Positions 415 through 36,920 of a stretch of 64,000 nt of DNA are shown here, piece after piece. The stretch's first letter is position 1. Each line of letters opens with the position of its first letter. The translations under genes were made by a program, and so were the position numbers. The DNA comes from Asterias amurensis. Its lineage: Eukaryota. The notes below the pieces were generated by a model, which did no database searches, was not told the DNA's origin, and was given only the letters and a program-made list of their open reading frames with translations. The stretch spans positions 7,123,031 through 7,187,030 of the forward strand of contig NC_092653.1 in assembly GCF_032118995.1 (NCBI RefSeq), in the 5' to 3' direction.

Positions 415-680
415 CTGTAACAAAGCCCAGTCCTCGTTGATCAACCATTCATGACGGTCAGCGGTCTTAGTGTCCGTAGCGGTCGTCCGGTGAACAATGG
501 GTAGAGGCTTGACCACCGGCTTGCCTGCCATGGCACGGAGCTTCTGCTGCTTGGCCTCACGACGCATGCGCAGGAGGGCGGCTGAGGGACGATTGAAGAG
601 TGACTGGGGCGGGGTCATTATGTGAGCCGTGTGGTGTGGTGTCTCACCTGTCTTTGTGTGCGGTTTGATCTTACGAACAC
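415..680 (-). CDS. additional downstream coding exon ending in a SANT/Myb-like motif (candidate EP400/Dom-A-like alternative C-terminal region)
   Basis: Acceptor ctctgttttcccccataacag|GTGTTCG, donor TTACAG|gtaaag, phase 1->0, phase-compatible with exon 1882-2032. Peptide GVRKIKPHTKTGETPHHTAHIMTPPQSLFNRPSAALLRMRREAKQQKLRAMAGKPVVKPLPIVHRTTATDTKTADRHEWLINEDWALLQ. The W-x3-EDWALLQ ending matches the start of a SANT domain helix 1. The open frame continues 5' of the ATG the track uses. Confidence 0.5.
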
Positions 681-1497
681 CTGTTATGGGGGAAAACAGA
701 GTTATACAAATAAAACATACTAAAACTTTACCTATATATGTGATCTACCACGTGTTCTTTTTGTAAATTTTATAGAAGAATTTGATAACAACATCTTTCG
801 TTATACCTTTACTCCTGTTTGAGTCATTACTAATTTGGGAGACACGGTTTGCTGTCTTGTCTAGGCACCCTTCAAAAGTTGCCCATAGATTTAAAGGAAA
901 TGGCTCTTTGCAAAATGAAAGACCTTGCCATCTTAAAGATGAGACAATAATAAATAATAAATTTTCCAAACTTCAGTGTACAACCATCTACATAACACTT
1001 GTATTCCTTGTACAAAAACAATTTTGTTTTATTCCTGTTGATCCGTCTTTATGATCCGAACCTCTAAGCTTTGATTTTAGTAAAACGAACAAATCCACTT
1101 TGCAAATCAATCAAAGGGTAATTTCATTCTCTACAGGATAAAGCAAACTTGTTGAAGACTTGGAAATAATCATTTATGTAAGGATTTCTATGAACAGTGG
1201 ATAATCATGTGAACCTGCCCCATTCAAGGAGTAGTGACTTATTTTGCAGTATTTTTTACCGCGTAAGAAAGTATGTTAACCAAATTTATGTGATGCAAGA
1301 CAAGTAAAACAAACTGGTTTTGCTTTCAGTGTTATTTAAATTATTTATTTAGCCATTGATAAAATATACGAACATACAGGCAGTTGAAATATTGAAAGAT
1401 AAAACTGACACTGTGAGGCGAGGATATTCACTGTAGAAAGCGCTCTGAAGCGGTACAAATTATGGTCAATTGTGCGTAAGCACTAACAGGTTGAAGA

Positions 1498-1847
1498 CAG
1501 TGGACACTATTGGTAATTGTCAAAGACCAGTCTTCTCTCTTGGTGTATCTCAACATATCGTAAAATAACAATCCTGTGAAAATTTGAGCTCAATTGGTCG
1601 TCGAAGTTGCGAGATAATAATGAAAGAAAAAACACCCTTGTCACACGAAGTTGTGTGCTTTCAGATGCTTGACTTCGACACCTCAAATTCTAAATCTGAG
1701 GTCTCGAAATCAAATTCATAGAAAATTACTTCTTTCTCGAAAACTATGTTACTTCAGAGGGAGCCATTTCTCACGGTGTTTTATACTATCAACAAATAAG
1801 GTTTTATTCTAATAATTATTTTGAGTTATTACCAATAGTGTCCACTG
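1498..1847 (+). mobile_element. MITE family A (TIR CAGTGGACACTATTGGTAAT), copy 1
   Basis: Terminal inverted repeats cagtggacactattggtaat ... attaccaatagtgtccactg. AT-rich ~350-bp body shared with the copies at 54237-54612 and 57825-58166. Confidence 0.8.
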
Positions 1848-1881
1848 CCTTTAAAGAAGGTTTAACTGAAGAACACCCTAC

Positions 1882-2032
1882 CTTGATCCACCTTGGCCTT
1901 CTTGTGTTCCTTCTTGACGTAGACCTGAGGTAGTTGAGATTCCATCATGATGGAAGACTCGTACATGAGGCTGGCCGAGTAATCCACATACACATCATTC
2001 TCATCCTGAGGCGGTGTAGGTGGAGCCCACAT
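1882..2032 (-). CDS. additional downstream coding exon (candidate alternative 3' exon of the Domino-type gene)
   Basis: Acceptor ttggtacag|ATGTGGGC, donor GATCAAG|gtaggg, phase 0->1. Peptide MWAPPTPPQDENDVYVDYSASLMYESSIMMESQLPQVYVKKEHKKAKVDQ has non-random composition. It lies 4.7 kb 3' of the stop of the big exon on the same strand. Confidence 0.5.
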
Positions 2033-2339
2033 CTGTACCAATCAAATGAAGTGGGAGGTGCTTGTTATATACATATTCATGAGAGAGTACTATTCTCTAA
2101 TAGACCAATCCATTAAGCTCCGCCCCATTGCGTATTGACCAATCACAACACAACGAAGGTCCGACACTAAGGTCCGACATGCCTGCGCGTATGCTTGGCG
2201 TGCGCAGGCAGAGTTGAGCAGAAAGGCATTGGAGAGCCCAGGTTCTTGCTCACACGTGCGTCGTGGGCAGAACCTACTGGATCAGTCTATTGGTTGAGCT
2301 ATAAGTGCTTCTTAAACACCCAGATTCTTACATATTAAT

Positions 2340-2412
2340 GAGGGAATACTATAACTGGTTGAGTAATCCACGTACACACCATTCTCATCCTGAGGGGTTG
2401 TGGGTGGAGCCC
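2340..2412 (-). pseudogene. truncated duplicate of the 5' part of exon 1882-2032 with the acceptor AG destroyed (CAG to CTG)
   Basis: gagtaatccacgtacacaccattctcatcctgaggggttgtgggtggagcccacatcagtac vs exon gagtaatccacatacacatcattctcatcctgaggcggtgtaggtggagcccacatctgtac. It would encode MWAPPTTPQDENGVYVDYS and then diverges. Confidence 0.55.
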
Positions 2413-2596
2413 ACATCAGTACTCGGTCAATGGGAGGTGCTTATTATATACCCTGCATACATGCCAATCATGTACGAGAACTTCAAGTGGATTTAATTAC
2501 CCTGTCAAAATATTACCATTGAATATTACCAATACTTTCAGGTAATAGCACCATGTGTAAATCTCTGTTGAGCAGAGTTGGTTTTGAAAAGGACTA

Positions 2597-2855
2597 GGCC
2601 CAATTACATAGCGCTGCTTAGCGGCCGATTTTGTGCTTACTGTGCGATTTTTATTGCATAACGCTGCTAACCGTAAGCACACGAAACACCGCACGAAAAT
2701 AAATGACGTCACAATGCAAATCCACGGTAAAAACGCATGTGGCCGCCCAACTTTTCTGCTAACCTGTAAAATACGCTAAGGCCTTAGCAAATTTTTCTGC
2801 TACAGTAAGCACGCAAATTTGCTTACCGTTAAGCAGCGCCATGAAATTGGGCCCT
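2597..2855. mobile_element. MITE family B (TIR GGCCCAATT.CAT.GCGCTGCTTAGCGG), copy 1
   Basis: aggcccaattacatagcgctgcttagcgg ... ccgttaagcagcgccatgaaattgggccctgg. Confidence 0.75.
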
Positions 2856-3051
2856 GGTGGTTGACAACTCATTGTTAACTATTACCTTATCTCTACAAAT
2901 ACAAGCTAATCCTGATGATAGGTCATCACAGCGTGCGTATCTGTTACATGTCCAAAGTTTTTGCTACATAACATTCATTGCACCAGAAGGGAACCAGACT
3001 ATTTGTCCTTCCAAATCATGATGGCCTCTGCACGATAATAATACAGCCTAA

Positions 3052-3256
3052 CTTCATGGCTCTGCTTACCGCCAAATTCTGCACTTACGATTATCATTTC
3101 TTGGCTAACTCTGTAAGCAAAGAATGCCTAGTATTGTGGAGTATGCACAAGGCAAACTTCCCCGCTAACCCATGAAATATGCTTGCAGTAGGCATACAAT
3201 TCCCTGCTTCGGCAAGCGCCGATTCTACGGTAAGCAGCCATGAATTTGGGCCCAGG
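3052..3256. mobile_element. MITE family B, copy 2
   Basis: cttcatggctctgcttaccg ... cggtaagcagccatgaatttgggcccagg. Solo termini of the same type occur at about 15239, 32370, 53095 and 58715. Confidence 0.65.
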
Positions 3257-6200
3257 TCTATACATCGAATAAACTTCTGTTGTACTTACCGGCATGGTCT
3301 CATTTGTGTTGGATATGTACACCTAGATGGAGAGAATAAACAAGGAACTTGCAATAATTTGACATTGAAGAAACTGCAGGTCAGGAAAAGAGGCGGGATT
3401 TCGACTCAAAGATTAGTAGTGGCAAACTTCCGTCTCTGTTGTAATCCTCATAGAAACAATCAATTTATTGGAAGGGGGATTTGGAACACTATTTTGTCCG
3501 TCTTGTTACAGGCAAAAAATTTGAATGAAACAAATGTTCTTCAGATGAAAGCTTGTTAAGAACGCAGAAATAATTGGGGGTTTCTTTATTTTATCACTTA
3601 CACTGAAATTGCGCCTATTTGCTTGCAACTCTTAAGTGTTTTGGAGGATACCAAGCAGTTTTAACTGGTCACTGCTGATTCATTTCACCTTTTTTGCTGA
3701 TTGTATTTGGATCCATTTGTATTTTTCTTTAAATTAGCACATTCTTTGATTTACAATCTTCCGTTGCCACCGTTGCTGGTGATCTCCAAGCAATTAGCCC
3801 AAAATAAGATTGTAAAATAAGAGGGGTTGGTAATTGACTGAATACCTTTGCCATAGACCGTGGTAAAATCACTTCAGTCTTATTTAAGGGTATTTTCCTT
3901 GAAAACCTACTTTAATGTGAAAATGTTCTGATGACTGAGAAAGATTTTTCCAGGAAGGATTTTGGCAGATACATGGTCTTTTAAAGAAAGGAAATGCGAC
4001 TTTGTTTCCTTTGCGTGTCTAGAACTTAAATATAACATTGATTCCCCCTTTTTGTGTTCAAAAGCTGTTTTTGATGTACAAAATGTTTTTCCTTAAAAAT
4101 TTACATCAAAGGAAAGATCTTTGGTTTTCTTTTTGTGTCTGATTACAGTATATATCGTTCTAGATGGAATACTATTTTGTTTTTAGAGTAAGAGTCAACT
4201 CATCAATTTCTCATTAATTTTACACTTTGACTCATCGTCTGTGTTTGAGAAGAAAGGACTTGGCCATAAAGATAATTTTGAAAACATAAAATCTTCACTG
4301 AAACTGTCTCTAATGGATTATTACACAAGCTGGTTTTTTACCTAAAACAAAACAAATTCTTGCATAAACTTGTTATGAAATTAACCACCAACATTCTTCT
4401 AGAAGTCTGCATTTGAAACCTTGCATTAGGTTGATTTTGAACGTTTGCTCTAGAAGTATTAGTTACCACTGTAGTGACTTATCTTTTGTATCAGCATGTC
4501 TTGAAACTTGTTAAGCACCATTTATAAAAGAGAGCAATCCTTTCATAGCTCATGCTCTGATTGTGCAATTTGTGTGAGATGGTCAAGGAAAATTGTTCAC
4601 AAGAAGCAAAGAGTGCGAGGGGAAAAAATAGAAAAAATAAAACAAAAAATCTGACAACTTCTGTAAATGTTTTAAAGGGTTTGGGTACTTTTTACACAAA
4701 ACACAATGTCCCCAGATTTACATTAAACTTACACAGTTTGAAGATAATGATGGTAGAAAGCTTCCCTTAAAATATTACTTGCTGAGGTGCTGTATTTTTT
4801 TAATAAATGGGTAAAACAATTTACACAAATAATTTTCATCTCAGTCAGACAAAAATTATTTTCGCATGTAAAAACTTACTAACATTTATGGTAAAATACC
4901 ATAGCTGGTAAATATGTTTTACATGCTAAAACTGAGACGAAAATTATTTTTGTGACATTGTTTTACTCAATGCACAGCACCTCAGCAAGTAAATTGTTAA
5001 GGTACGCTTTCTACCATCATCATCTTCAAACTGTGCAAGTTATTGTAAATCTGTTGACATTGTGTTTTGAGTCCTAAAAAAAGTACCTGAACTCTTTAAA
5101 GGTACATGCAGTTATCAAGACATCGTCTCAAAGCTTTGTAATCTGGAATCGTATCAATCAATGCCCACTAAACCAAACCGCCCCTGGCCCACCGTTTGTA
5201 TCTCCACCTCCAATGGTTTTTAGCTCAGATTGGCACAGGCAATATAAATTTGATTTCCTCAGAAAAATAAGCCAGAAAACGTAATAAGAATTATAGTGAA
5301 GAGATTGATTCAAGTGACATGCGCATTTGGCATTTCTGGATCTTTTATTGTTACCAGCCAAACCACATCCACTGAACTTTTTATACCATCAAATTGGAGA
5401 GAGATAGTGTATGGGCCAGGACAGATGTAAAATTAGAAGGCGACCATTGTATTGCGAAAAACTTGGCAGAGCCAAGCGTTTTTAAAAACAACAGTAAAGT
5501 TCACAACAAATTGTGTTTACAGTTTTGTCTGAAATCAACGTGTACTTTCTGGGACTGATAAAGAGATATTGTAACCTTCTTTGTTTGGCAAGAAATTTGG
5601 TGTAACTTTCTCATTAATACCATTCCACTACCAAGCCTGGCCGAACTCAGAGCATTAAAAAAACCAACAGAAGTAAAGACACAAACAGTTTTCTTTAGTT
5701 TTTATCTTCTCAAGCTTTATATTTGTTGTTTTTATTAATCCCATTTTTCTCTTCTTCCGTCTCGCTATATCAATACAAAAATACTGGGAACACATTATGC
5801 AGAATAAACATTTTTTGGCTTTTTTTAAGGTTTAAATAATCCTTCAAATTAATAAAGTTTTAAGATTTCTATAAGAGTCAACTCAGAATGGGATGTCGGG
5901 CACGATTTACTGCAGAATACCTCTAGATATCAATATTCGAGACTGTATAGTGATTTCATAATACATTTTAAAAACCTAATCACTACAGAATCTTTTGAGC
6001 AGTCTTCGTTATCAATACAGCTTTGCCTGTTAGTTTTCAACACATTTTTTTCATAGGGTAACCCTTTTTTTGAGCTTGGTCTTTCTACGGGTAATAAAAA
6101 CCCACCCAAATCTGTCATGAACCCCAGATCTTTTTTGGGGATCAAAACTGTCTGGACAATCGTGTCTACTTTGTCACCCAAAGAGCATAATAAAGAGACA

Positions 6201-6773
6201 TTATGACCACTTACATTTGTTATGTTCATGGTCCCTGATATAAAGAACAAATCAAAACAACTAGTGCAAAATTTTAAGCATTTTTTTGCCATGAATGCCA
6301 GCCAACTGAATACTTTTAGGTATAAAACAAGCTATCAAAAGACCAGAAATAAAAATGTTAAGCTATTCCTTGATTGAATGGTTGAATTGACTGCATTATT
6401 CCAAACATTTGTAACGGTCAGACTGTCTATTTTTTTTATAACGCAGTTTACTTTCTTTTGACAAATACTCCTTTTTCTTTACATCTAAACACCAACGGTT
6501 ATCCTTTAGTACATTACGATATCAGGGAAAATAGCTTTCAAAGTGTCAAAAAAACAACGCTAGATAAAGAGCTTTTTCAACACAGAATCAATTTCAACAC
6601 AAAGAAATGCATGTGATTCTTGATTCGTTAACATCAATACCCAAACATCCACTTCTCAGTTATATATCTCCTTCCCCCCTTTCATACAAACATTTTTACA
6701 CAGATTGAAATCCAGCTTCCCTGCATGCCTTTTGTCACTTTAAATAAATAACCTAAAAATATCGACCTTAATG

Positions 6774-9700
6774 TCAACTGGGTACCGGATGTTTACGAGG
6801 GCGCCCCCTACCTCGCTTAACTTTGGGAGTGTTATCAGTTTGACTGGGAGTTCCTCCTCCCCTAGCGGGGGAGACATCCCTTGAATTCGCCCTTGAACTG
6901 CTCCTAGAACTACCCCTTGATAAGTTGATTAAATCTCGAACAGATAATGAAGGGCTGGCCGAGTGGTGCCGGCCTCGAGATCGAGTCCGTATCAAACTAT
7001 CCGCTAGCTCAGCGCCGCTTTTTGCGCGGGTTCGAGGGCCTGCGGTTTTATCTACTACAGGGAGCTGATGTATTTTGGCAAGTTTTTGCTTGAGGGCGGT
7101 CTTTGCGAGCTGCTGAGGGGTGGGGACCTTTGTACTTTCTGATGTAGCCCCGTCTGAGCTAGAGGCATCAGTGTAATTCTCAACAGGGGTTAGTGGCTGG
7201 ACTGGACCGTCGGTGGCAGCAGGTACAACAACCAGGTTAGAGTTACTCTTGGAGTTTTCAGGCGTTTGGCTTGGGATGGTTAATGATTTTGAGATGGCCA
7301 GATCCAAAGCAGTTGGTGATGATGGTACCAAGACATTGGATGGTAAGGGTTCAGATGGTGGGGATGCTGTGGGACTCGTTGATTTTGGACCCGGTGATTT
7401 CATCATGGAAGAGAACAACTTGAAGATGTTGCGCTGTTCGGGACTACTACTGCCTGGTTTAGTGGAGCTCTGTGCAGAATATTCAGAGCTAGTATTGCCC
7501 TGTGGCTGGTTGGTATTTGTCAATACATCATTGATACTTCGTTCCACCATCACTGCTTGTGGTGTTTTATACTCGGGAGCAGCAAGCAATGGGCTTTGGA
7601 GATTTTCAAACAAGTTGCGTTGTCCATTGTTTTCTGATTTGGGTGCCGAGTTAACCAGTGGTATCGACTCTGCTGTCGTGTTCACTGGATCCAAGTGTAG
7701 TCCTTGGTTCGTCGTGACTAGAGAGTTCTTTTGTTGAAGTGTTGGTGAAAGATCCAGTGGCTCAGGAGAATCGGAAAGAGCAGGCAGAGGTGGAGACTGA
7801 GTGTTAGGGGAGGATTGCGTGGAAGGAGGCGAATGTGTTGGATTTGGGGAACGCTTGGTTGGGTAGGACTGGGGACTGGAATAGATCAATGGTATGGACG
7901 ACTCATTTGGTGCTTGTTCTCCTAAGAATGGCTTGGGAATCTCAGTTTGGGTTGAAGGTGTAGTCCCTTTTTCTAAAATAAGTTTAAGATCTTCCAAAGC
8001 ATTTTTTTCTGATTCCGGGTTAGATGTGACTTGTATTTGCATTGGCTCAGTATGTCCATGGAATTTGGATTCAGCTTGTAGTATCGGAGCCTGTGGCGAC
8101 ACCTGTGATAGTGTGTGGGCTCCTCCTGCCTGTGTCTTAATCACACTCGTGGTCTGAAGATTTAGAAGCAATTCCACCTGCATTTCAGGAGACATTTGCT
8201 CTGATAAAGACTGACTGGGTAATCGGACCGGTGTTTTCTCCTGTTGAACAGGCTGGGCATTGAGACTAAGCACAGGGTTTGCTTCCCTTGGAACACCTGC
8301 AGCGTCAATGCGCACCTTCCCAGCTACCAAGGCTCGAACAGCAGTTTCAGAACGTTGAACATCCATTGCAATCTGTGGCTCGACTTGATCCGAGGGTTTA
8401 TCGACTACCAATCTATGAGACACATCGTGAGCCAGCTCTAATAGTGGTATCGGTCGAATCTCTTTATGTTCAACAAGTGGCTCTGATACTGTTGTGGGAG
8501 GGGGCCTGACGGCAGCCTGGGACAGTATTGGCATCTGTAGTTTTGGTGACAAGGAGACTGTGAAAGGAATCTCGGAGGAAGAATGCCCAATAGGCTGGGA
8601 TGGGGCATTGAACCTTTGTGAGGGTGATAGACTTGTATGTACAACACGAGGTGGAAGGGAAATGTGTGATCCAGCCGATTGCGGGTGATGGGCTACTAAC
8701 GATCCCGGAACAGGAGGTCGCAAAATGCCTGATCCAGAAACTTGTGGTTGTGACGTAACTGTCTGTGGTATTTGTCTTGATACTTGTGGTTGATTGCCAA
8801 CTGTTGAAGCCACTTGTGCTCTGGTTGGCTGTGAAGGGACAAGAGATCCTATCACTTGGGAAGGAGCCGATGCTCTGGGAACGGAGACACTCTTGGCCAA
8901 GGCTTGTGCTATGGTTTGTGGCTTTCCAGCAGTCTGCCGAACAGCTTGCTTCAGAGACTGCAACTGTAACAGAGCTTGGGCGTTAATCGTTGGTGCACGT
9001 AGTGGATGTCTGTGCACTGGAAGCTGTGGCTGAGCTGGATGTCTGTGAGGGACAGTGTGTAGCTGTAACTGGGGTATGACCTGGGTGTTGAATCTGTTGC
9101 GTGGTTGGGATGGGCCTGCTGGCAACAACTCAAATCGTGCCAGTATCGGCTGACCCTTCTGTCTAGGTTGGCCTTGTGCACCCAGCAGCTGAGCTGATCC
9201 AAGGGGCTGTTGATGCACCAAACCCTGACCTTGAGTTGGATGTGTGGCCAAGGAAAGGCGAAGTGCAGGTTGTTGTGATTGAGGACCGAGGCCTGGCCGG
9301 GTCAGCATCTGCAGTCTTGCTAGGATCGGCATCTGGGACTGACTTTGAGTTTGGTTAGGTGAACCCTGCTGTAATGATGCTTGCGAACCACTTTGTAACT
9401 TCAACAGAGTCTGTTCGTTTTGGTAGTACTGAGACTGTAAGTTTTGCATATGGGATGCCACTTGGGGCCGTGACTGACCCTTCAGCTGATAGTGTTGCTG
9501 AAGCAGTGCTGCCTGTGTTGAGATGGGCTGCGGATGCCTCTGAAATTGCGTTGACTGTAGGGGAGGTGGGTTAGGTAGAGTTTGGGATTGGTTTGGCATT
9601 CTTGGTCTTGGAGATGACACCCCTTGAATGCCTTGCTGCAACAGATGTCTGGGAGCTACGTTTGGTTGCGCTCTGTTCAGGGCCAGAAGTTGAGCTGTGG

Positions 9701-10772
9701 TTAGGGGTCTTAGACTGGCTGATGATAAAGACGGATGCTGCTTACGAAGAGCCTCCAAGTTGCTTTGAACAACGGATGTTATTTGGTTCGTTGGATTTGG
9801 GGGTGGAGACGTCGTGGAATAAATAGACGACATAGGATGTCCAGGTATTAACAGAGGAACAGCAGGAAGCTTTGGTGTCTGGAGATGTGAGGAATGAACG
9901 TCGGCTGCAAGGCGAGACACCAAATCAGGGACTGGAGGCAAGTCAGCCTGTCTAAGAAGCAGTGGTTGATTCCCTCGAGGAGATAAGTTCAGCGGCTGGA
10001 CACTGTCATTATTCCCAACAGATGAATGGGCAACGGAAATATTTATTGTAGGAGACATGGCACCCGACGGATGGACGTTCATCAACACCCCTTGAGGGTT
10101 ACACACAACTCTGGAGTGAGAGGAAACGGGTAGTCTTGAAGAGGGTCCCGTCAAGGATAAATCCATTGGGGAGTTGCAGCTTCGCTCTACACCATCTACA
10201 ATCACCTCTTGGAGCTGATTCTCAACAGCAGCAGCTGCAGCTTCTGCTTTCCTTTTCGGCGCCTTACTCGTCTTCGGCTCTTTGGCTTTACCTCCCTCTT
10301 TCGCAGATGACTTCTTGGACTTGGGGGTCTTCTCTGCCCTCTTAGACGGCAACTTTGCTGGGGCCAACCGAGCCAGAGGGGACTTAGGGGAGAGTGATGC
10401 AGTTGGAGGGATAGGAGGTGGGGATTTTGTACCCACCGACCTCGTCACCGGGGACCTAGGGCCAGAATCATCTATGGCATCTGCCTTTGGATTGCGCCGC
10501 GTGCTGCGCCCCGGTGCTGTCTGGGATTGTCGCGCGGTTCTTTCTTTACTATTGGACCTACTGTTTGCCCTACTGCTCTTTTGACTATTACTCTTAGACT
10601 TATTACCACCACCCTGTTTAGATCTACTCTTATGCACCTTATTTTTAGACTCCTCATTGGTGTAGGTGAAAAAGATCTCGTCCTCTTCGAGCTCAGCCTT
10701 TCTCTCCTCGGCCTCCTTCAGAGCTTGCAGGCGCTCCAGTTCCCACTCTTTCTTGGCCAACTCTACTTGTTC
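6774..10772 (-). CDS. SRCAP: Domino-type ATPase, 4-kb terminal exon (SRCAP-like C-terminus): P/Q/S/T-rich low complexity ending in an AT-hook and stop
   Basis: Acceptor ttttgttggtattag|GAACAAG at 10772 with an in-frame TAG just upstream. 3999 bp stop-free to the TAA at 6776-6774. It starts EQVELAKKEWELERLQALKEAEERKAELEEDE and ends ...TPKVKRGRGRPRKHPVPS*. The GRP core flanked by K/R is an AT-hook, as at the SRCAP C-terminus. The supplied track starts this ORF at an internal TTG (10760). Confidence 0.85.
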   Translation of the reverse strand, partial: EQVELAKKEWELERLQALKEAEERKAELEEDEIFFTYTNEESKNKVHKSRSKQGGGNKSKSNSQKSSRANSRSNSKERTARQSQTAPGRSTRRNPKADAIDDSGPRSPVTRSVGTKSPPPIPPTASLSPKSPLARLAPAKLPSKRAEKTPKSKKSSAKEGGKAKEPKTSKAPKRKAEAAAAAVENQLQEVIVDGVERSCNSPMDLSLTGPSSRLPVSSHSRVVCNPQGVLMNVHPSGAMSPTINISVAHSSVGNNDSVQPLNLSPRGNQPLLLRQADLPPVPDLVSRLAADVHSSHLQTPKLPAVPLLIPGHPMSSIYSTTSPPPNPTNQITSVVQSNLEALRKQHPSLSSASLRPLTTAQLLALNRAQPNVAPRHLLQQGIQGVSSPRPRMPNQSQTLPNPPPLQSTQFQRHPQPISTQAALLQQHYQLKGQSRPQVASHMQNLQSQYYQNEQTLLKLQSGSQASLQQGSPNQTQSQSQMPILARLQMLTRPGLGPQSQQPALRLSLATHPTQGQGLVHQQPLGSAQLLGAQGQPRQKGQPILARFELLPAGPSQPRNRFNTQVIPQLQLHTVPHRHPAQPQLPVHRHPLRAPTINAQALLQLQSLKQAVRQTAGKPQTIAQALAKSVSVPRASAPSQVIGSLVPSQPTRAQVASTVGNQPQVSRQIPQTVTSQPQVSGSGILRPPVPGSLVAHHPQSAGSHISLPPRVVHTSLSPSQRFNAPSQPIGHSSSEIPFTVSLSPKLQMPILSQAAVRPPPTTVSEPLVEHKEIRPIPLLELAHDVSHRLVVDKPSDQVEPQIAMDVQRSETAVRALVAGKVRIDAAGVPREANPVLSLNAQPVQQEKTPVRLPSQSLSEQMSPEMQVELLLNLQTTSVIKTQAGGAHTLSQVSPQAPILQAESKFHGHTEPMQIQVTSNPESEKNALEDLKLILEKGTTPSTQTEIPKPFLGEQAPNESSIPLIYSSPQSYPTKRSPNPTHSPPSTQSSPNTQSPPLPALSDSPEPLDLSPTLQQKNSLVTTNQGLHLDPVNTTAESIPLVNSAPKSENNGQRNLFENLQSPLLAAPEYKTPQAVMVERSINDVLTNTNQPQGNTSSEYSAQSSTKPGSSSPEQRNIFKLFSSMMKSPGPKSTSPTASPPSEPLPSNVLVPSSPTALDLAISKSLTIPSQTPENSKSNSNLVVVPAATDGPVQPLTPVENYTDASSSDGATSESTKVPTPQQLAKTALKQKLAKIHQLPVVDKTAGPRTRAKSGAELADSLIRTRSRGRHHSASPSLSVRDLINLSRGSSRSSSRANSRDVSPARGGGTPSQTDNTPKVKRGRGRPRKHPVPS

Positions 10773-11987: not shown

Positions 11988-12071
11988 CTCTGCTTCCAGC
12001 ATCTCATCCATAGCAATCGGTTCAAGCGTAGACTCCAGATACTTCATGGCGTACTTCTCAATGTTGGTCAA
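11988..12071 (-). CDS. SRCAP: Domino-type ATPase exon (post-ATPase)
   Basis: Acceptor tccctctgtag|TTGACC, donor GCAGAG|gtaggt. Peptide LTNIEKYAMKYLESTLEPIAMDEMLEAE matches SRCAP LTPIERYAMKFLEASLEEVS. Confidence 0.85.
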
Positions 12072-12595
12072 CTACAGAGGGACAATTTCATAGAGACATG
12101 ATAAATATTTAACCCACAATTTCAGTGGACCCTTCCCATGAAATATGCTAATCACATCCATGCATTCGTACAGACGCTATTGGTTGACAAACGCCATAGA
12201 GTTGTGCACTAAACACAAACGCCATAGAGTTGTGCACTATAACCACAAATTTCACACCTCACCAGCCCTGTCAAAAGAGCGCGATGTCCCCATTTTGCCA
12301 ACCGGTACCAATACGCAAGCGTGATGTGCAAGTTAAAATATTTCATGGAAAGGGTCTATTGAAAGCAAACTTTTGCCAGGAACAGATGAGCAACTTTAGT
12401 TAGTTCAGCAAAAGTGGAAATGACCACAATGGGTTTTTCTCTACAGAGGATTCAACAGATTGGTCACCTACGTGAATTAAATTTTTCTTATACTAAAAGT
12501 AATCGTATTTACATGAAGAATCCGAGGATTTCTAGTCCATCCTGAACATCTCTGGATGGACACAAATTTGATTGTCCTGTTGCCTTGAACGATTA

Positions 12596-12722
12596 GCTCA
12601 GATAAATATGAGACTGTCTCAACACCGTCTTTAGACTCAGAGACTCTAGTCTGAAAAATCTCACATGTCATCATCGCAAAATCCCCCAAAACAGGATTGA
12701 TAATTTATGCACAAGGATGTGA
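12596..12722 (+). repeat. interspersed ~110-bp repeat (family G), copy 1 of 3
   Basis: gataaatatgagactgtctcaaca.cgtctttagactcagagactctagtctgaaaaatctcacatgtcatcatcgcaaaatccccc. Also at 13427-13550 and 15076-15172. The track ORFs 12477-12689 and 13284-13523 are translations of this repeat. Confidence 0.75.
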
Positions 12723-12965
12723 TAGGCTATTGAGGAAAAAAAAGCACTGAACTCTAAAAGCTTTGTTTTTAAAAGCCCTACTCTGCAAGCCCTAGGTGCA
12801 TTATTTTATGGCTTTATCTGAATTTTTTTTATGAATTTGATCTTACAAAAAAAACCCCCATAAACGAACAGAATTCCGGTTGGAGGAAAATGTATGGAGG
12901 AAAATGCCTCAAGATTGTCATGTAAAGTACAAAAGACAACAGAAAAACCATGACTGATTGATTAC

Positions 12966-13142
12966 TTGATTATCCAGCTGTGCCAGCTCAATCTCCACCT
13001 TCGAGACGTCGTCTTTGGATTTGGTCCCCTCTTCTCCCTCATAGGGTATCGTCTCATCGAACTCAGCCAGATCAGCATCTTGCTCGGCAAGAGCCTTGGA
13101 GGTTGCCTTGACGTCCGTCTCATCTTCAGTCTTAGCCAAAGC
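12966..13142 (-). CDS. SRCAP: Domino-type ATPase exon (post-ATPase)
   Basis: Acceptor tattatcttttag|GCTTTGG, donor GATAATCAA|gtaatt. Peptide ALAKTEDETDVKATSKALAEQDADLAEFDETIPYEGEEGTKSKDDVSKVEIELAQLDNQ (compare SRCAP ...AEQVAELAEFNEN...). Confidence 0.8.
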
Positions 13143-13932
13143 CTAAAAGATAATAATAAATTGATAATAATTCAATAGTATGGGATTTGAGGCATTGCAT
13201 GGTGAGGTAGTAATAATATTTCGGCCGTGTTACGAATTGACGACTACAGCTACGGCTGTTGCCAAGGGTGTTCCTCAGGCATCCTAAATCTCAATGCATG
13301 ATGACGCAGAAATGTAGCCGTAGCCATAGCTGTTGTCGCCAATTCGGACTCGGCCGAAGGATTTCTGGTCCACCCTGATCACCTCTGATCGAAAAAAAAT
13401 TTGATCCCCCCTGTTGCAGTGAATGGTTAGCTCAGATAAATATGAGATCGTCTCAACACCGTCTTTAGACTCAGAGACTCTAGTCTGAAAAATCTCACAT
13501 GTCATCATCGCAAAATCCCCCAAAACAGGAATGATAATTTATGGAGGTCATTGCCTTGGTGCCCCTTGCATTTCTCTCATCCTGGTGCCTGTTACTAAGG
13601 CAGGGACGATATTTGGACCTTTGGAAAAAAGTAGAAATATTTTATCAAGTACAAGAGTTCACCTACATAAACAAGGGTAATAGGGTTTTAAAAACTTTTC
13701 AGGCTATTCAATCAACAAATTCCTGATTTTTTTTTAAGAGCAAACAAATCTGAAATCAGACGAAAATCACGACTGTTGTCTTGTCCTCACAAGAATGCAG
13801 TACCTTTTCAACGATTGTTTGCATAGTGCACCAACCTCCCCCCAAAGTAACACGTAACAAGCTGATTTAATTTCCTAGTTTTGTGGGGAGAGCTTTTAAT
13901 CTCCTCGAAACATGAGACATCGAGAACCTTAC

Positions 13933-14124
13933 CTGTTCTAGCTGATTCTGCGTCATGACAGCCTTTGCCTCAGCGGCAGCTGCTTGCTCAGGCTTGTCTG
14001 CCTTCTCAGGCTCGACAGCCTTGGCTACCTTAGGCTCCTTCCCTGTTGGGATGTCCATCTCCTCGATGAGGACAGGCTCAGCTTCTCGTCTGTTGCTCAG
14101 ATTGAAGATGTCCGTAATGGTGTT
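13933..14124 (-). CDS. SRCAP: Domino-type ATPase exon (post-ATPase acidic region)
   Basis: Acceptor tttctctttgcag|AACACC, donor GAACAG|gtaagg. Peptide NTITDIFNLSNRREAEPVLIEEMDIPTGKEPKVAKAVEPEKADKPEQAAAAEAKAVMTQNQLEQ (compare SRCAP QTIRELFDMPLEEPSS...ILEQ). Confidence 0.8.
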
Positions 14125-14660
14125 CTGCAAAGAGAAATGGGATCAAGTTTGGTTTGATTACTAATTCTTGGGTACACTCACAGTAAAAAAGAGAAAAAAG
14201 AAGACAAAAAAGTGGTACACCAAAATGCAAGGGGCTTTACAGCTTTACAGATTTGCTGGACGAGTTTAAATAAAAACAAAAACCTCTATCTTGCAACAGG
14301 CATGACATATGGACCCTGGAAAAAAGTAGGAATACGTAAATATACTCATGATATAGGCTCTATTAATCACAGTCTAACGGATTGTTTTCAAAGAAGGGCA
14401 AAACAAAGCAGAAAACAGACTTATGTAGGAAGAATATCATGCCTGCTGCAATCAGGGAGATGTTTAGAAATACATTCAACGTAGTAGAGAAAAGTTTCCA
14501 TAATCAAGGATATTTTCAAAGTTGGTCATCAGAGCATGGAAAGATTGCTCTAGTTTCAGGGAACTTTCTGTGGAATCAGGGCAAGTTGGCTGCATCCTTG
14601 AGAATCAAATGTCAGGATTGTGATTCTCCTCCTTGGGCAAGAGGACGGAGCACTACTTAC

Positions 14661-14775
14661 CGTTTTGAAAAATGCTGTGGTGAAGTTACCTCCCTCGATG
14701 GACACATCAACCAAGAGTCTCTTCTGATTGGCCTTCTTTAAGATGTTCTCCTCTACGGTCATTTCACTGATCAAC
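14661..14775 (-). CDS. SRCAP: Domino-type ATPase exon, end of helicase C
   Basis: Acceptor ttgtgttgtag|GTTGATC, donor AAAACG|gtaagt, phase 2->0. Peptide RLISEMTVEENILKKANQKRLLVDVSIEGGNFTTAFFKT matches SRCAP RLISERTVEENILKKANQKRMLGDMAIEGGNFTTAYFKQ. Confidence 0.95.
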
Positions 14776-18000: not shown

Positions 18001-18112
18001 GAAAAATCAAATGGTCATCATTGGGATTTGAACCCAATTAGACCCCCCCCCCCCCCCCCCCGACACTCCAGGCAGATGCTCTACCAACTGAGCTATGACG
18101 CACAGCGGTATA
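18001..18112 (-). ncRNA. tRNA-derived SINE fragment or tRNA pseudogene interrupted by a poly-G(20) tract
   Basis: The - strand reads gcgtcatagctcagttggtagagcatctgcctggagtgtcg-G20-tctaattgggttcaaatcccaatgatgacca, with an A-box (TAGCTCAGTTGGTAGAGC) and B-box (GGTTCAAATCC). No intact acceptor stem. Similar fragments at 48480-48590 (poly-C14) and 37440-37530. Confidence 0.4.
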
Positions 18113-32340: not shown

Positions 32341-32434
32341 CTGGTGATATAGGAAGACATTAATCAGGACCCAATTTCATGGCTCTGCTTAGTGTATAGC
32401 AGGTAATTTGGGCTAATATGTGCATGTACTAGTG

Positions 32435-33079
32435 CTGGGCGAATAGTGAAATTTTGTTATTCAGATACCGCTGGCCAACTATCCGAAATTAACCGGATAT
32501 TCGAATAGTTTTTTTCGCCGCTAGAGGGCGCTATAAAAAAAATAAAAATAAAAAAATATTTAGAAAAATATTTTTTTTGTCGCTAGAGGGCGCTGTTCGT
32601 TTGTGAATGAGATCTTCTGGGCGGATTGATATTAGTTTTAGACAGTGTCACTCGGTTCATTCATAAAAATGACCGGATCTAATTTAAAGATGGCGATTTG
32701 CTTTTTCTTTTGATCGTGGATGACTCTACGTGAAGGAAAACTTTTGTAATCTTTGAACAAATTACGTCAGAAATGTCATTGTTTTGACTCTTCACGGAGG
32801 TGAGCATAGTTAAATACTTAATTTATGCTGTTTTATGCTGTCTTAATAGAAGTTTCATTAGGATTCAGACAAAACATTCATGTCAGTTGTCGCCCGACGT
32901 CCGCGGATATTCGGATATTAAAGAATATCCGGTTACTTGGTTGTAATTACAGAACTATCCGGTTTATAAATAGCTATTCGCGCCCTATGCGGATATCCGG
33001 TTAAGAAAAAAAAGGCATTCGCGGTTACGGATAGGAAAACCTATTCGCCATTAACCGGATATTCGAATAATTCGCCCAG
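32435..33079. mobile_element. ~650-bp foldback/TIR element in an intron
   Basis: Termini gggcgaatag...ccggatattcgaata // tattcgaataattcgccc are inverted. Internal duplicated cgctagagggcgct blocks and poly-A/T. Confidence 0.6.
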
Positions 33080-35024: not shown

Positions 35025-36212
35025 CTAAACACAACAAAGAAATCAGTAAAAAAAAAAATAGCAAGATATTAATTAGAATCAAGAGGATATCACAGGGATG
35101 AGATTCTGAAAAAGTTTGTCACAGGAGGTGAACATAGATAAACAAAGGTTTCCCTTACTTCTTTTTTCTCACTCGTTGAACAAGCAAACCAAAATTTTGG
35201 GAAATACGAAATGAAGTTTGAAAAATTGTCAAAAGACAAACGTACTAAAGTCAATTTGCCAAAGTCAGAGAATTTTAAGAAGCCTGAACTGAAAAAGGGG
35301 AAATTATTCTCAGAAAGCCAAGGGGGAAAAATCTCAGCCCTGATAACAGCTATGACTATGATAAGGACAGTTTTGTTGATTTAACGTTTTTTTTTATAAA
35401 TACAACTTTCTTGCAAGAATGCAAAGGATTTAGGAAGGAGTTTCAGCTTTAAAAGACTAAGTAAACACACAAAAATGTCTACCCCGACAGGAACCATGGG
35501 ACAGGGGGCTTCCATCCCATGGGTTTTATGAGGTACTTTTGATCTATCCCTTACTGTAATAAACCAAGATGACAGTGAGGAAGCTATCATCATGGGCGTT
35601 GAAGGGAAAAATATGTCAACAAAGAAGTACTAAAACTGTTACAAGCCACGAAACTGTAGGTTGTTCTTTGTTAATGTTGTCGGTCCAACACAAGATGACT
35701 AAGCACAACATATCAGAATGAGGTTACCAGCTATAATACCATGTCACATGTTCAGTATCCGACTAGTATCCTGCTACATAGCAGAATATTGATAAGGATC
35801 ATTCACTGCTTAAGCATCTCTATGAAACTGGGCCCTGGATGTACGTTTACGTTGATAACTCGCCAGGACCCTAAAGGCCTTGTCACACGAGGCAACTTTT
35901 GCAGGCAACTTGGTGGCAACCAACTGCAGTGCATACTACAGGACCACTTTGGTAGATTACGGGTCAATTTGCAAACATTGTCTTACGATCCACAAGAGAA
36001 ATAGGTGTACATTCAAAGGTGAATGCCTTTTCTTCATGGAGATTGCCTGGAACTGGTTGCCCGTAAATTGCCTCGTGTGACATGGCCCTTAGGTGAGAAC
36101 CTTAAGTCAAGGGTGCTTGATTGTTGATTGAGTGCAGATCGGACACCAAAGTGCTACCAATAAAAAAACTGTGAAAACTGAAAGTGTAAGGATGACTTCA
36201 TTCTCCTCTTAC

Positions 36213-36390
36213 CTAGTCCACAGGCCATGTGGGCCAGTAACGCGATGGTCTGTATTGTCTTCCCCAGTCCCATCTCGTCGGCAAGGATCCCGTTTAATCT
36301 CTTATCGTGCATGGTCACCAGCCAGTCAAGACCGATGTGTTGGTACTCGCGCAGCTTGTGACGGAGAAGGAATGGCACAGGCGTCTTCAC
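36213..36390 (-). CDS. SRCAP: Domino-type ATPase exon, SNF2 N-lobe motif I (Walker A GLGKT)
   Basis: Acceptor tgattatctcag|GTGAAG, donor GGACTAG|gtaaga. Peptide [59 protein letters not shown] is nearly identical to human SRCAP ...[49 protein letters not shown]. Confidence 0.95.
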
Positions 36391-36522
36391 CTGAGATAAT
36401 CAAAACATTAAAACCACTCATGAGATAAGAAGATCTGTGCTCATTAACGGTAGCTTTTAGAGACCAAGGACAAAATAGAATTGGGTAAACAAAAGGACTC
36501 TATTGGGGAATTCTAATGACTG

Positions 36523-36920
36523 GGGGGTGCTAAGCTTGGGCGATATCACGATATTATCGAATATCGCGATATAAATTTGGAAACGATTTCGATATCGGAT
36601 GGATTTGGTTTTAATCGAAATATCGATATATCGCGATATATCGCGATATATCGCGATATATCGCGATATCGATTAAATATCGCGATGTATTTGCTAGCTT
36701 AGACATCTTGCACCCCATGGGTTTGGAGTAAAACCAGAAGAATAGGTCATTAGAACACCTCTCTTATGCTATGACTGTCTCTTCTACAACTTTCACTTGG
36801 AGTTTGAAGACTGATGATGTCAAATTTAATTAATCGCGATTATATCGAATATCGCGATATATTGTCGGCGATATATCGTGAATAAAATAAATCGATATCG
36901 CCCAAGCTTAGGGGGTGCTC
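36523..36920. mobile_element. MITE with an internal (ATATCGCG)n palindromic microsatellite
   Basis: TIRs ggtgctaagcttgggcgatatc ... gatatcgcccaagcttagggggtgct. The tandem run cgatatatcgcgatatatcgcg... lies at 36630-36680. Confidence 0.7.

What the first reader, a model, noticed from the sequence alone, without database searches (positions are those of the whole stretch)
415..10772. Candidate alternative C-termini: an AT-hook terminal exon (SRCAP/Dom-B-like) versus downstream SANT-like exons (EP400/Dom-A-like)
The 4-kb exon 6774-10772 ends with a stop right after the AT-hook. Yet 4.7 kb and 6.1 kb further 3' on the same strand lie two well-formed exons (1882-2032 and 415-680). Both have polypyrimidine-AG acceptors and GT donors and are mutually phase-compatible (0->1, 1->0). 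The second ends in ...HEWLINEDWALLQ|gtaaag, which reads like the start of a SANT/Myb helix. Entry to the first needs a phase-0 upstream donor. Exons 11988-12071, 12966-13142, 13933-14124 and 14661-14775 all end in phase 0. So skipping the AT-hook exon would give an in-frame EP400/Dom-A-style isoform with a SANT domain, while stopping in the big exon gives the SRCAP/Dom-B-style isoform. Drosophila domino uses exactly this alternative 3' splicing, with DOM-A in the TIP60-type complex and DOM-B in the SWR1-type complex. Finding the same logic here would suggest that isoform switching predates the vertebrate split into two genes.
Basis: partly seen in the sequence, partly recalled or inferred. Interest (0 to 1): 0.8.

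Follow-up and report, generated by a model that had tools for sequence, protein, structure and literature searches.

The report
Domino gene's two alternative protein tails
This invertebrate (probably echinoderm) chromatin-remodeller gene can end either in a long SRCAP-like tail or in EP400-like exons, and the choice turns on one weak splice site inside an exon; the same switch is known in flies and appears to predate the vertebrate split into two genes.

Summary
All coordinates, splice sites and phases are as stated. The downstream exons are homologous to human EP400 just before its SANT domain (E 1e-35). The 4-kb exon ends in KRGRGRPRK plus a stop.

- The EP400/DOM-A route most likely keeps the first 45 codons of the big exon.
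- It leaves at an internal phase-0 donor, AAG|GTGCAT (10638|10637).
- It passes a missed 33-nt microexon (3322-3290, VYISNTNETMP), then joins 2032 and 680.
- If the donor is not used, translation reads through 1,287 codons (dN/dS 0.27) to the AT-hook and stop. A conserved AATAAA follows at 5736-5731.

The same layout occurs in three unlabelled related loci and in oyster DNA. Among 89 long read-through homologues, 87 begin with Val, which is the GT of the donor.

Annotated "helicase domino" proteins of sea urchin, crinoid, oyster, mussel, Ciona and arthropods use the core|microexon|WxPPTPP join. Snail, sea slug, arthropod and sponge sequences read through.

This is a new member of the known DOM-A/DOM-B kind. 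It supports an ancestral rather than a convergent origin. No transcript data exist for this species.

The parts
11988..14775 (-). Last four exons shared by both isoforms (14775-14661, 14124-13933, 13142-12966, 12071-11988). They encode the end of the ATPase C-lobe through LTNIEKYAMKYLE...LEAE.
   Evidence: Canonical AG/GT sites; all end in phase 0. They align to SRCAP 2166-2357 and EP400 2021-2190.
10638..10772 (-). Shared 'core': the first 135 nt (45 codons, EQVELAKKEWELERLQALKEAEERKAELEEDEIFFTYTNEESKNK) of the composite exon, phase 0->0.
   Evidence: Aligns to EP400 ...AVRAWEFWNLKTLQEREARLRLEQEEAELLTYTREDAYS. dN/dS is 0.05 against L003. The same 45-codon length occurs in L002, L004 and L005. 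A profile search gives 388 homologues.
10632..10637 (-). Internal, weak, phase-0 5' splice site AAG|GTGCAT. If it is not spliced, it is read as Val-His.
   Evidence: Identical in L003. CAG|GTGAAG sits at the same codon in L002, L004 and L005. An approximate PWM gives 1.25 bits, against -0.3 to 7.5 for the other seven donors scored (six of them 3.7-7.5); it ranks 4th of 83 phase-0 GTs. 87 of 89 long read-through homologues start with V. The residue before is Q in 93 of 103, and the residue after is N, K or S in 84 of 103.
6777..10637 (-). Read-through coding sequence of the B (DOM-B/SRCAP-like) tail: 1,287 codons, basic and S/P/Q-rich.
   Evidence: Open frame. Against L003: dS 0.43, dN 0.118, dN/dS 0.27, and all indels are in frame. 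The orthologous ORF P0010 is 76% identical and has the same stop.
6792..6818 (-). C-terminal AT-hook core, KRGRGRPRK.
   Evidence: Direct reading. The last 50 codons have dN/dS 0.07. Identical in P0010.
6774..6776 (-). Stop codon (TGA) of the B isoform.
   Evidence: Conserved in L003 and L001.
5640..6773 (-). Probable 3' UTR of the B mRNA, with a poly(A) signal AATAAA at 5736-5731 and a GU/U-rich downstream element (tgtttgtgtctttacttctgttggttttttt).
   Evidence: 80% nucleotide identity to L003 over 1.6 kb, against 60% for the upstream intron. AATAAA and TGTGTCTTTA are invariant in the window, L003 and L001. The cleavage site itself is inferred.
3290..3322 (-). 33-nt microexon of the A route (VYISNTNETMP), phase 0->0.
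   Evidence: ctctccatctag|...|gtaagtac. In L001 the peptide is identical, with one synonymous change. The flanks are 89.5% identical over 76 nt, more than the neighbouring exons. Counterparts: VYISQTEEIMP (Lytechinus), IYISQTNKIMP (Antedon), VFLSDIDQEKMP (oyster), EYVYEDVDGQTEVMP (human EP400).
1882..2032 (-). A-route exon encoding MWAPPTPPQDENDVY...KVDQ, phase 0->1.
   Evidence: The first codon is ATG here but ATC in L001, so it is not a conserved start codon.
415..680 (-). A-route exon ending in the first SANT helix (HEWLINEDWALLQ), phase 1->0. The gene continues beyond window position 1.
   Evidence: L001 continues with SANT, NPKH...RAERIAKEKK and poly-Q exons.

Best explanation
The window holds most of a single Domino-type (SRCAP/EP400 pre-duplication) SWR1-family ATPase gene on the minus strand. 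It has an EP400_N region, an HSA domain and a split ATPase.

The exon 10772-6774 is a composite exon. Its first 45 codons are common to both products. Directly after them lies a weak phase-0 5' splice site (AAG|GTGCAT).

Route A (DOM-A/EP400-like): if the site is spliced, the transcript continues through a 33-nt microexon (3322-3290), then exon 2032-1882 and exon 680-415. Further exons lie beyond the window and encode the SANT domain, Q-rich regions and a ...YAMRxR end.

Route B (DOM-B/SRCAP-like): if the site is not spliced, the GT is read as Val. Translation continues for 1,287 codons through a basic, low-complexity tail to a terminal AT-hook and stop. The mRNA most likely ends at a conserved AATAAA about 1 kb further on.

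The isoform ratio would then be set by competition between U1-dependent use of the weak donor and cleavage/polyadenylation inside the 7.3-kb 'intron'. This is a composite-terminal-exon (intronic polyadenylation) switch.

Shown: the sequence anatomy, purifying selection on both tails, cross-phylum conservation of the layout, and annotated or transcript-derived proteins of both kinds in other species.

Inferred: that both mRNAs are made in this species, the cleavage site, the competition mechanism, and the assignment of A to a TIP60/NuA4-type complex and B to a SWR1-type complex (by analogy with Drosophila, PMC7239659).
For: (1) Anatomy and phases were verified.

(2) Human EP400 aligns without a break over core + A1 + A2. 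Its 15 extra residues fall exactly where the microexon sits.

(3) Both tails are under purifying selection.
- B tail: dN/dS 0.27 with only in-frame indels, and 0.07 at the AT-hook end.
- A exons: dN/dS 0.04.
- B tails of a second lineage (L002, L004, L005): 0.14-0.29.

(4) The donor is conserved at the same codon in L003, L002, L004, L005 and oyster L006. Vertebrate EP400 genomic ORFs break at the same place...REDAYSM|V.

(5) Profile search, classified:
- 87 of 89 long read-through tails begin with V.
- The preceding residue is Q in 93 of 103 and the next is N, K or S in 84 of 103. This is the footprint of CAG|GTRA(A/G)N.
- 18 proteins show core|microexon|WxPPTPP.

(6) Names:
- The A join appears in 'helicase domino(-like)' of Lytechinus variegatus, Antedon mediterranea, Crassostrea gigas and Mytilus, in a Ciona savignyi protein, and in spiders, a tick and insects.
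- B read-through appears in Biomphalaria, Plakobranchus, Limulus, a spider and insects, and in a complete transcriptome ORF of the sponge Oscarella pearsei.

(7) The 3' flank of the stop is 80% identical to L003, against 60% for an intron. AATAAA and a GU-rich element are invariant.
Against: No transcript, junction or poly(A)-site data exist for this species; everything is comparative.

The internal donor is weak (1.25 bits by an approximate PWM written from memory). Three other phase-0 GTs in the exon score higher.

RefSeq for Lytechinus pictus models the A exons as a separate 1,032-aa gene, 'E1A-binding protein p400-like', starting MPIWAPPTPP.

Apart from the AT-hook and its position, the B tail shows no detectable sequence homology to the SRCAP C-terminus.

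The source organism could not be identified with the tools.
Confidence: 0.85

Rival explanations
1. The whole AT-hook exon is an alternative terminal exon. The EP400-like isoform skips it completely by joining a phase-0 donor at 11988 (or 12966, 13933, 14661) straight to the acceptor at 2032.
For: All these donors are phase 0 and the join is in frame. Such a product is not excluded as a minor isoform.
Against: It would delete the 45-residue core and the microexon. Both are present in human EP400 and in all 18 A-type homologues recovered, including those of sea urchin, crinoid, oyster, Ciona and insects. The internal GT is conserved as a Val codon in 87 of 89 read-through homologues.
Confidence: 0.05
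2. Two genes. The upstream gene always ends in the AT-hook exon. The microexon, A1, A2 and following exons form an independent downstream gene with its own promoter, encoding a stand-alone SANT/poly-Q protein.
For: RefSeq annotates exactly such a model in Lytechinus pictus: 'E1A-binding protein p400-like', 1,032 and 943 aa, starting MPIWAPPTPP. The microexon here also ends ATG CCG, and A1 begins with ATG.
Against: The sister species L. variegatus and other phyla have joined models of about 2,850-3,300 aa.

The microexon has a conserved polypyrimidine-AG acceptor. Its nine codons before the ATG are conserved as protein: identical in L001, and VYIS[NQ]T.. across echinoderms.

The first codon of A1 is ATC in L001.

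No GC- or CpG-rich region lies between 6.7 and 2.1 kb, which is weak evidence in an invertebrate.

The peptide is homologous to the middle of EP400 and contiguous with the core.
Confidence: 0.07
3. Only one tail is functional. Either the read-through frame is an unspliced-intron artefact, or the downstream exons are decaying relics.
For: None specific. The B tail is low-complexity and evolves fast (76% amino-acid identity to P0010).
Against: B tail: a frame of 1,287 open codons, dN/dS 0.27, in-frame indels only, and a conserved stop and AT-hook. A exons: dN/dS 0.04 at dS 0.91, with conserved splice sites. Both forms are annotated or transcribed in other phyla.
Confidence: 0.02

Closest known systems
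Drosophila melanogaster domino (DOM-A / DOM-B isoforms; Ruhf 2001; Boerner & Becker 2016, bioRxiv 10.1101/052746; Scacchetti 2020, PMC7239659)
   Same: One gene with a common N-terminus (HSA plus split ATPase). The A tail has a SANT domain and Q-rich regions; the shorter B tail is unstructured.

The junction type appears identical. The tephritid fly Anastrepha has ...NRKDANNQ|IWISDNTMEQMP|MWCPPTPP, and Anopheles has a V-initiated read-through. In flies the isoforms define a NuA4/TIP60-type complex and a SWR1-type complex (PMC7239659).
   Different: The B tail here is much longer: 1,287 residues against about 490 (2,497 minus 2,008, my arithmetic from figures I recall). It ends in a canonical AT-hook, which the papers read do not describe for DOM-B. 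The organism is not an arthropod (probably an echinoderm). The exact Drosophila divergence codon could not be checked with these tools. No functional data exist here.
Human paralogues SRCAP and EP400
   Same: EP400 matches the A route residue for residue: core, microexon-equivalent, WTPPTPP and the SANT helix. It also shares the exon boundary after ...REDAYSM.

SRCAP matches the common exons (LTPIERYAMKFLE...KQAEEQVE) and then runs into basic low-complexity sequence. SRCAP carries C-terminal AT-hooks, which are lost in Floating-Harbor truncations (PMC8414691).

The gene here combines an EP400_N region with a SRCAP-like HSA domain.
   Different: Humans have two genes; here there is one locus. 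Homology of the B tail to the SRCAP C-terminus is not detectable by sequence. In SRCAP the core is shortened and lacks the TYxR(E/D)DAY motif.
Composite terminal exon / intronic polyadenylation switches (for example immunoglobulin mu secreted versus membrane mRNA; own knowledge)
   Same: An internal 5' splice site inside an exon competes with a downstream poly(A) site. Splicing gives one C-terminus; read-through plus cleavage gives the other.
   Different: This is an analogy of mechanism only, with no homology. The competition has not been tested here.
Yeast Swr1 and Eaf1 (separate SWR1 and NuA4 scaffolds)
   Same: There is a division of labour between an H2A.Z-exchange ATPase and an HSA...SANT acetyltransferase scaffold (PMC7239659).
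   Different: In yeast these are separate genes. Swr1 aligns here only over the ATPase end (E 1.7e-5).

Membership tests
SWR1/Domino-type (INO80-like, split) Snf2 ATPase gene | HSA domain N-terminal to the ATPase | tested here: met
   Pfam HSA, E 1.2e-14, at 43649-43413.
SWR1/Domino-type (INO80-like, split) Snf2 ATPase gene | Snf2 ATPase lobes separated by a long insertion, with overall orthology to annotated domino proteins | tested here: met
   Pfam Helicase_C, E 9.5e-16, at 16132-15830. tblastn of the L. variegatus 'helicase domino-like' protein gives 26 collinear HSPs with 63% mean identity. N-lobe exons lie at about 36.4-29.8 kb and C-lobe exons at about 17.9-14.7 kb, with a Q-rich insert between them.
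DOM-A / EP400-type C-terminus | Core, then microexon peptide, then WxPPTPP(Q)DDxDxY motif, then basic linker | tested here: met
   EP400 alignment at E 1.4e-35. Microexon at 3322-3290. The same order is seen in 18 homologues.
DOM-A / EP400-type C-terminus | SANT/Myb-like domain | tested here: inconclusive
   Only the first helix (WLINEDWALLQ) lies in the window, and Pfam finds nothing on it. With the next exon of the orthologous locus L001, Myb_DNA-bind_6 reaches E 0.0023 (18.5 bits, cut-off 22.9). By eye that exon matches the EP400 SANT, NWDLVSD..CSRIYRS.KQCR.RYE.VIIPREEGK.
DOM-A / EP400-type C-terminus | Q-rich C-terminal region and conserved ...YAMRxR end | not testable with these tools
   These lie beyond window position 1. 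Q-rich exons are present in L001. The YAMRLR end is seen in L002 and in the sea urchin, crinoid and oyster proteins.
DOM-B / SRCAP-type C-terminus | Read-through of the core's 5' splice site into a basic, unstructured tail with its own stop and poly(A) signal | tested here: met
   The V-initiated tail matches 87 of 89 homologues.
DOM-B / SRCAP-type C-terminus | AT-hook motif(s) (GRP core flanked by R/K) | tested here: met
   KRGRGRPRK at 6818-6792. The motif is too short for Pfam. GRP-type cores occur in 22 of 89 homologous tails.
DOM-B / SRCAP-type C-terminus | Sequence homology of the tail to the human SRCAP C-terminus | tested here: not met
   No PDB/SRCAP match for the tail, its last 128 residues, or a profile of the conserved (W/F)SNPNLVIRTRRA motif. 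The similarity is positional and compositional only.
Alternative-isoform switch (as demonstrated for Drosophila dom) | Both mRNAs and proteins are made from one promoter and reside in distinct complexes | not testable with these tools
   No RNA or protein data exist for this species. Support comes from annotated or transcript-derived proteins of other species.

The most novel reading that the evidence does not exclude
The DOM-A/DOM-B switch is not an arthropod invention that merely resembles the human SRCAP/EP400 pair. It is an ancestral animal device: a composite exon whose 5' splice site doubles as a Val codon (...CAG|GTR-AAN... = Q-V-[NKS]).

The read-through half of this device is seen from a sponge to molluscs, arthropods and this echinoderm-like genome. 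The spliced half is seen in molluscs, arthropods, echinoderms, a tunicate and vertebrate EP400.

Vertebrates would then have partitioned the two isoforms between duplicates. EP400 kept the splice route and the exon boundary. SRCAP kept the read-on, AT-hook route. This is a case of subfunctionalisation of splice isoforms.
Probability: 0.7. Interest if true: 0.6.

Novelty: new member of a known kind. Interest (0 to 1): 0.45.

Why it matters
Flies separate H2A.Z exchange (SWR1-type) from H4 acetylation (NuA4/TIP60-type) by splicing one gene; humans use two genes. The published account presents these as different or convergent solutions, and extends the splice solution at most to arthropods (PMC7239659).

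This locus shows the same switch, at the same codon, in a probable invertebrate deuterostome. The cross-phylum survey it prompted shows the same in molluscs, a tunicate and a sponge. That makes ancestry plus later subfunctionalisation the simpler history.

It also identifies a concrete, testable control point: a weak 5' splice site embedded in coding sequence, opposed by a conserved poly(A) site. A conserved microexon lies on the EP400 route.

The claim is incremental, not categorically new. Automated annotations already contain both kinds of isoform in many of these species.

Tried and rejected
- Pfam on the 139-aa A1+A2 peptide and on the big exon gave nothing useful.
- PDB sequence searches with the read-through tail (589 aa), with its last 128 aa, and with a profile of the LVIRTRRA motif gave no SRCAP match. 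'SRCAP-like' therefore rests on position, composition and the AT-hook only.
- Identifying the organism failed. Searching the papers for SRR26532981, ERZ26222911 and ERZ21939214 gave no hits. Rfam gave only a borderline tRNA-like hit. The window's own proteins are not in the protein collection.
- The echinoderm assignment rests on 63% and 62% identity to the sea urchin and crinoid domino proteins, against 58.5% to oyster. It also rests on the echinoderm-like microexon VYIS.T..xMP and on my recollection of echinoderm-type repeats. It is an inference.
- A first regex and alignment search for a microexon in L002 failed. Phylogenetic footprinting of L002 against L005 then found it: VFQCDHTADQML and VYQCDHTADHML.
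- The near-terminal GT (CCG|GTACCC at 6786) was considered as a donor that would fuse both tails into one protein. It was rejected: PWM -2.5, and all but one recovered protein lack a joined tail. The exception is a Limulus model that reads through and then splices into A exons.
- Exon-level details of Drosophila dom were sought in three papers. Only 'exon 11 (DOM-B)', 'exon 14 (DOM-A)' and 'identical for the first 2008 aa' were found. The fly divergence codon is inferred from Anastrepha and Anopheles.
- The literature was searched for an ancestral or subfunctionalisation account of SRCAP/EP400. None was found in the held library. The 2021 Scacchetti & Becker review is not held.
Full report
**Observation.**
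- Exon 2032-1882 (151 nt, phase 0->1) and exon 680-415 (266 nt, phase 1->0) have polypyrimidine-AG acceptors and GT donors.
- The exon 10772-6774 is a single open frame of 1,332 codons. It ends ...KVKRGRGRPRKHPVPS followed by TGA.

**What the downstream exons are.** Joined to the upstream exons, they match human EP400 (PDB 8qr1_A) over residues 2021-2378 at E 1.4e-35. The match includes LWTPPTPPQDDSDIY..., PPRSLFDRATPGLLKIRREGKEQK and PEWLISEDWALLQ, the first SANT helix.
- The window ends inside the SANT domain.
- The orthologous locus L001 (ENA contig, 87% nucleotide identity in this exon) carries the next exon. It reads AVQALQELPLTLQAVVPGHVINWDLVSDIVNGCSRIYRSPKQCRHRYETVIIPREEGK...
- L001 also carries further exons with the NPKH...RAERIAKEKK block and poly-Q runs.
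- Pfam's Myb models reach only E 0.0023 on this composite, below threshold.
- Against L001 the microexon plus these two exons have dS 0.91, dN 0.037 and dN/dS 0.04.

**The junction is not the one proposed.** In the EP400 alignment, the residues immediately before WTPPTPP correspond to the first 45 codons of the 'AT-hook exon'. EP400 has ...AVRAWEFWNLKTLQEREARLRLEQEEAELLTYTREDAYS; the window has EQVELAKKEWELERLQALKEAEERKAELEEDEIFFTYTNEESKNK.
- Exactly after codon 45 the window has AAG|GTGCAT, in phase 0 (10638|10637).
- The related locus L003 (Logan SRR26532981) has the identical site.
- Three related loci of a distant, unlabelled lineage (L002, L004, L005) each have a 45-codon core followed by CAG|GTGAAG.
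- EP400 has 15 extra residues between the core and WTPPTPP (MEYVYEDVDGQTEVMP).

Comparing the window with L001 revealed a 76-nt island of 89.5% identity. It contains a 33-nt exon, ctctccatctag|GTGTACATATCCAACACAAATGAGACCATGCCG|gtaagtac (3322-3290, VYISNTNETMP, phase 0->0). The peptide is identical in L001. The distant lineage has an equivalent 36-nt microexon, VFQCDHTADQML or VYQCDHTADHML.

The most likely EP400/DOM-A route is therefore 10638->3322, 3290->2032, 1882->680.

**The read-through tail is real coding sequence.** Past the internal donor the frame stays open for 1,287 codons.
- Against L003, dS is 0.43, dN 0.118 and dN/dS 0.27. The value is 0.07 over the last 50 codons, which hold the AT-hook. 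All 53 gapped codons are in frame.
- The read-through ORFs of L002, L004 and L005 (430-440 codons, with GRPRK and RGRGRPP hooks) have dN/dS 0.14-0.29 at dS of about 1.
- Downstream of the stop, the window is 80% identical to L003 over 1.6 kb, against 60% for the upstream intron.
- An AATAAA at 5736-5731 and a GU/U-rich block about 45-75 nt further on are invariant in the window, L003 and L001.
- I read this region as the 3' UTR and poly(A) site of the B mRNA. The cleavage site itself is inferred.

**How general the layout is.** A profile of the 45-residue core was searched against 1.84 billion representative proteins. It gave 388 hits at E <= 0.001. The best 150 were classified.
- 18 show core, then an 11-16-residue peptide that in nearly all of them ends in MP, then [MIL]WxPPTPP.
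- 89 carry read-through tails of at least 150 residues (median 468, maximum 1,925).
- 87 of those 89 tails begin with Val.
- Among 103 V-initiated tails of at least 20 residues, the residue before is Gln in 93, and the residue after is Asn, Lys or Ser in 84.
- Q-V-[NKS] is CAG|GTR-A(A/G)N read as protein. This is the footprint of a conserved 5' splice site that doubles as codons.
- The window's K-V-H (AAG|GTGCAT) is a weaker variant. An approximate PWM gives 1.25 bits, against -0.3 to 7.5 for the other seven donors scored (six of them 3.7-7.5). It ranks 4th of 83 phase-0 GTs in the exon.

**Who these homologues are.**
- The A join is found in 'helicase domino(-like)' of Lytechinus variegatus (VYISQTEEIMP|IWAPPTPP), Antedon mediterranea (IYISQTNKIMP|MWAPPTPP), Crassostrea gigas and Mytilus.
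- It is also found in a Ciona savignyi protein, in spiders, a tick, a beetle, flies and an ant, and in lungfish EP400.
- B read-through is found in Biomphalaria and Plakobranchus (molluscs), Limulus, a spider, several insects including Anopheles, and a complete transcriptome ORF of the sponge Oscarella pearsei.
- Locus L006 matches the C. gigas protein exactly in three exons. It shows the genomic arrangement there: core, then GTG AAG AAA... read-through. The frame is open for 640 residues in the related P0068.
- Vertebrate EP400 genomic ORFs break at ...REDAYSM|V, the same boundary.
- SRCAP aligns through ...KQAEEQVEAARKD and then continues into basic low-complexity sequence.

**Source organism.** No tool names it.
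- tblastn gives 63% identity to the sea urchin protein, 62% to the crinoid, 58.5% to the oyster and 48% to lungfish EP400.
- The microexon is of the echinoderm type.
- I infer an echinoderm of another class, with moderate confidence.
- The gene also has EP400_N (E 8.8e-11), HSA (E 1.2e-14) and Helicase_C (E 9.5e-16). That fits a single pre-duplication Domino-type orthologue.

**Mechanism (inferred).** This is a composite-exon switch.
- Use of the weak internal donor gives the SANT/poly-Q isoform.
- Failure to use it, followed by cleavage at the conserved poly(A) site, gives the AT-hook isoform.
- By analogy with Drosophila (PMC7239659), the first would scaffold a TIP60/NuA4-type complex and the second a SWR1-type H2A.Z exchanger.

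**Rivals.**
- Whole-exon skipping is contradicted by every A-type homologue recovered.
- A separate downstream gene is what RefSeq models in Lytechinus pictus (1,032 aa, starting MPIWAPPTPP). Four points argue against it: the microexon's conserved acceptor, the protein-level conservation of its nine codons before that ATG, the ATC first codon of A1 in L001, and the joined models in the sister species. I keep it at about 7%.

**Comparison with the literature.**
- Scacchetti et al. [quoted passage not shown] - The eLife digest calls the fly and human solutions convergent evolution.
- I found no paper in the held library that places the switch outside arthropods or derives SRCAP and EP400 from it.
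- Automated annotations already hold both isoform types in many phyla.
- The locus is therefore a new member of a known kind. The added value is the codon-level homology of the switch across phyla.

**Limits.**
- There is no RNA evidence for this species.
- The donor PWM was written from memory.
- The Drosophila divergence codon was not checked directly.
- Homology of the B tail to SRCAP is not detectable by sequence.

Noticed in passing
window 5180-5700 (minus strand), e.g. about 5245-5195: Several blocks 3' of the predicted poly(A) signal are nearly invariant in the window, L003 and L001. Examples are GATGCTCTGAGTTCGGCCAGGCTT and TTGCCTGTGCCAATCTGAGCTAAAAACCATTGGAGGTGGAGATACA. They are more conserved than the coding exons. 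They may be a distal 3' UTR or intronic regulators of the splice/poly(A) choice.
   Followed up: partly
window 2355-2422 and 165-358 / 2100-2290: An 88%-identical pseudo-copy of the 5' half of exon A1 plus its upstream intron end lies 384 bp upstream of the real exon. It has tactg|ATG, so it lacks an AG acceptor. The copy and the real exon are separated by a repeat of about 190-260 bp, which recurs just 3' of exon A2 (91-92% identity).
   Followed up: partly
window 6972-6998; L002, L004, L005; P0087; P0055: B tails of a snail, Limulus and the unlabelled L002 lineage share a motif, (W/F)SNPNLVIRTR(R/K)A. The window has a weaker version, DSLIRTRSRG, in its conserved C-terminal part. No match to SRCAP or any PDB chain was found.
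   Followed up: partly
window 58925-64000 (minus strand); tandem array 60692-63695: The upstream neighbour is an open frame of more than 1,692 codons that runs off the window. It is K/E/S/D-rich and contains 8 copies of a 375-bp (125-aa) tandem repeat at 98% identity. It has no Pfam match.
   Followed up: partly
window about 1497-1848: A MITE-like element of about 350 bp lies in the intron between A1 and A2. It has terminal inverted repeats GGCAGTGGACACTATTGGTAAT ... ATTACCAATAGTGTCCACTG. From memory, it resembles repeats common in echinoderm genomes.
   Followed up: no
window 18016-18100 (minus strand): A borderline Rfam tRNA hit (29.9 bits, threshold 29) lies inside an intron. It is probably a tRNA-derived SINE rather than a gene.
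   Followed up: no
window about 36200-36900 and 32400-32900: These are the highest CpG observed/expected values in the window (1.4-1.9), at only 35-43% GC. They lie inside the gene body, near the ATPase N-lobe exons.
   Followed up: no
P0194/P0196 (Lytechinus pictus) versus P0047/P0195 (L. variegatus): RefSeq splits the locus in L. pictus into a separate 'E1A-binding protein p400-like' gene that starts at the MP of the microexon. In L. variegatus the same exons are joined to the ATPase in models of 3,232 and 3,323 aa. This is an annotation inconsistency worth resolving with long reads.
   Followed up: partly
L006 590-760 (oyster, Logan SRR24956786): The oyster read-through frame has a single in-frame TAG 37 codons after the donor, and the same frame then stays open with a KKGRGRPS hook. 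The related ORF P0068 has a sense codon there. This may be a polymorphism, an assembly error or a species difference.
   Followed up: no
P0055 (Limulus polyphemus XP_022250926): This is the only recovered model that reads through the core donor for about 400 residues and then splices into WCPPTPP and SANT exons, giving one protein with parts of both tails. It may be a gene-prediction artefact.
   Followed up: no
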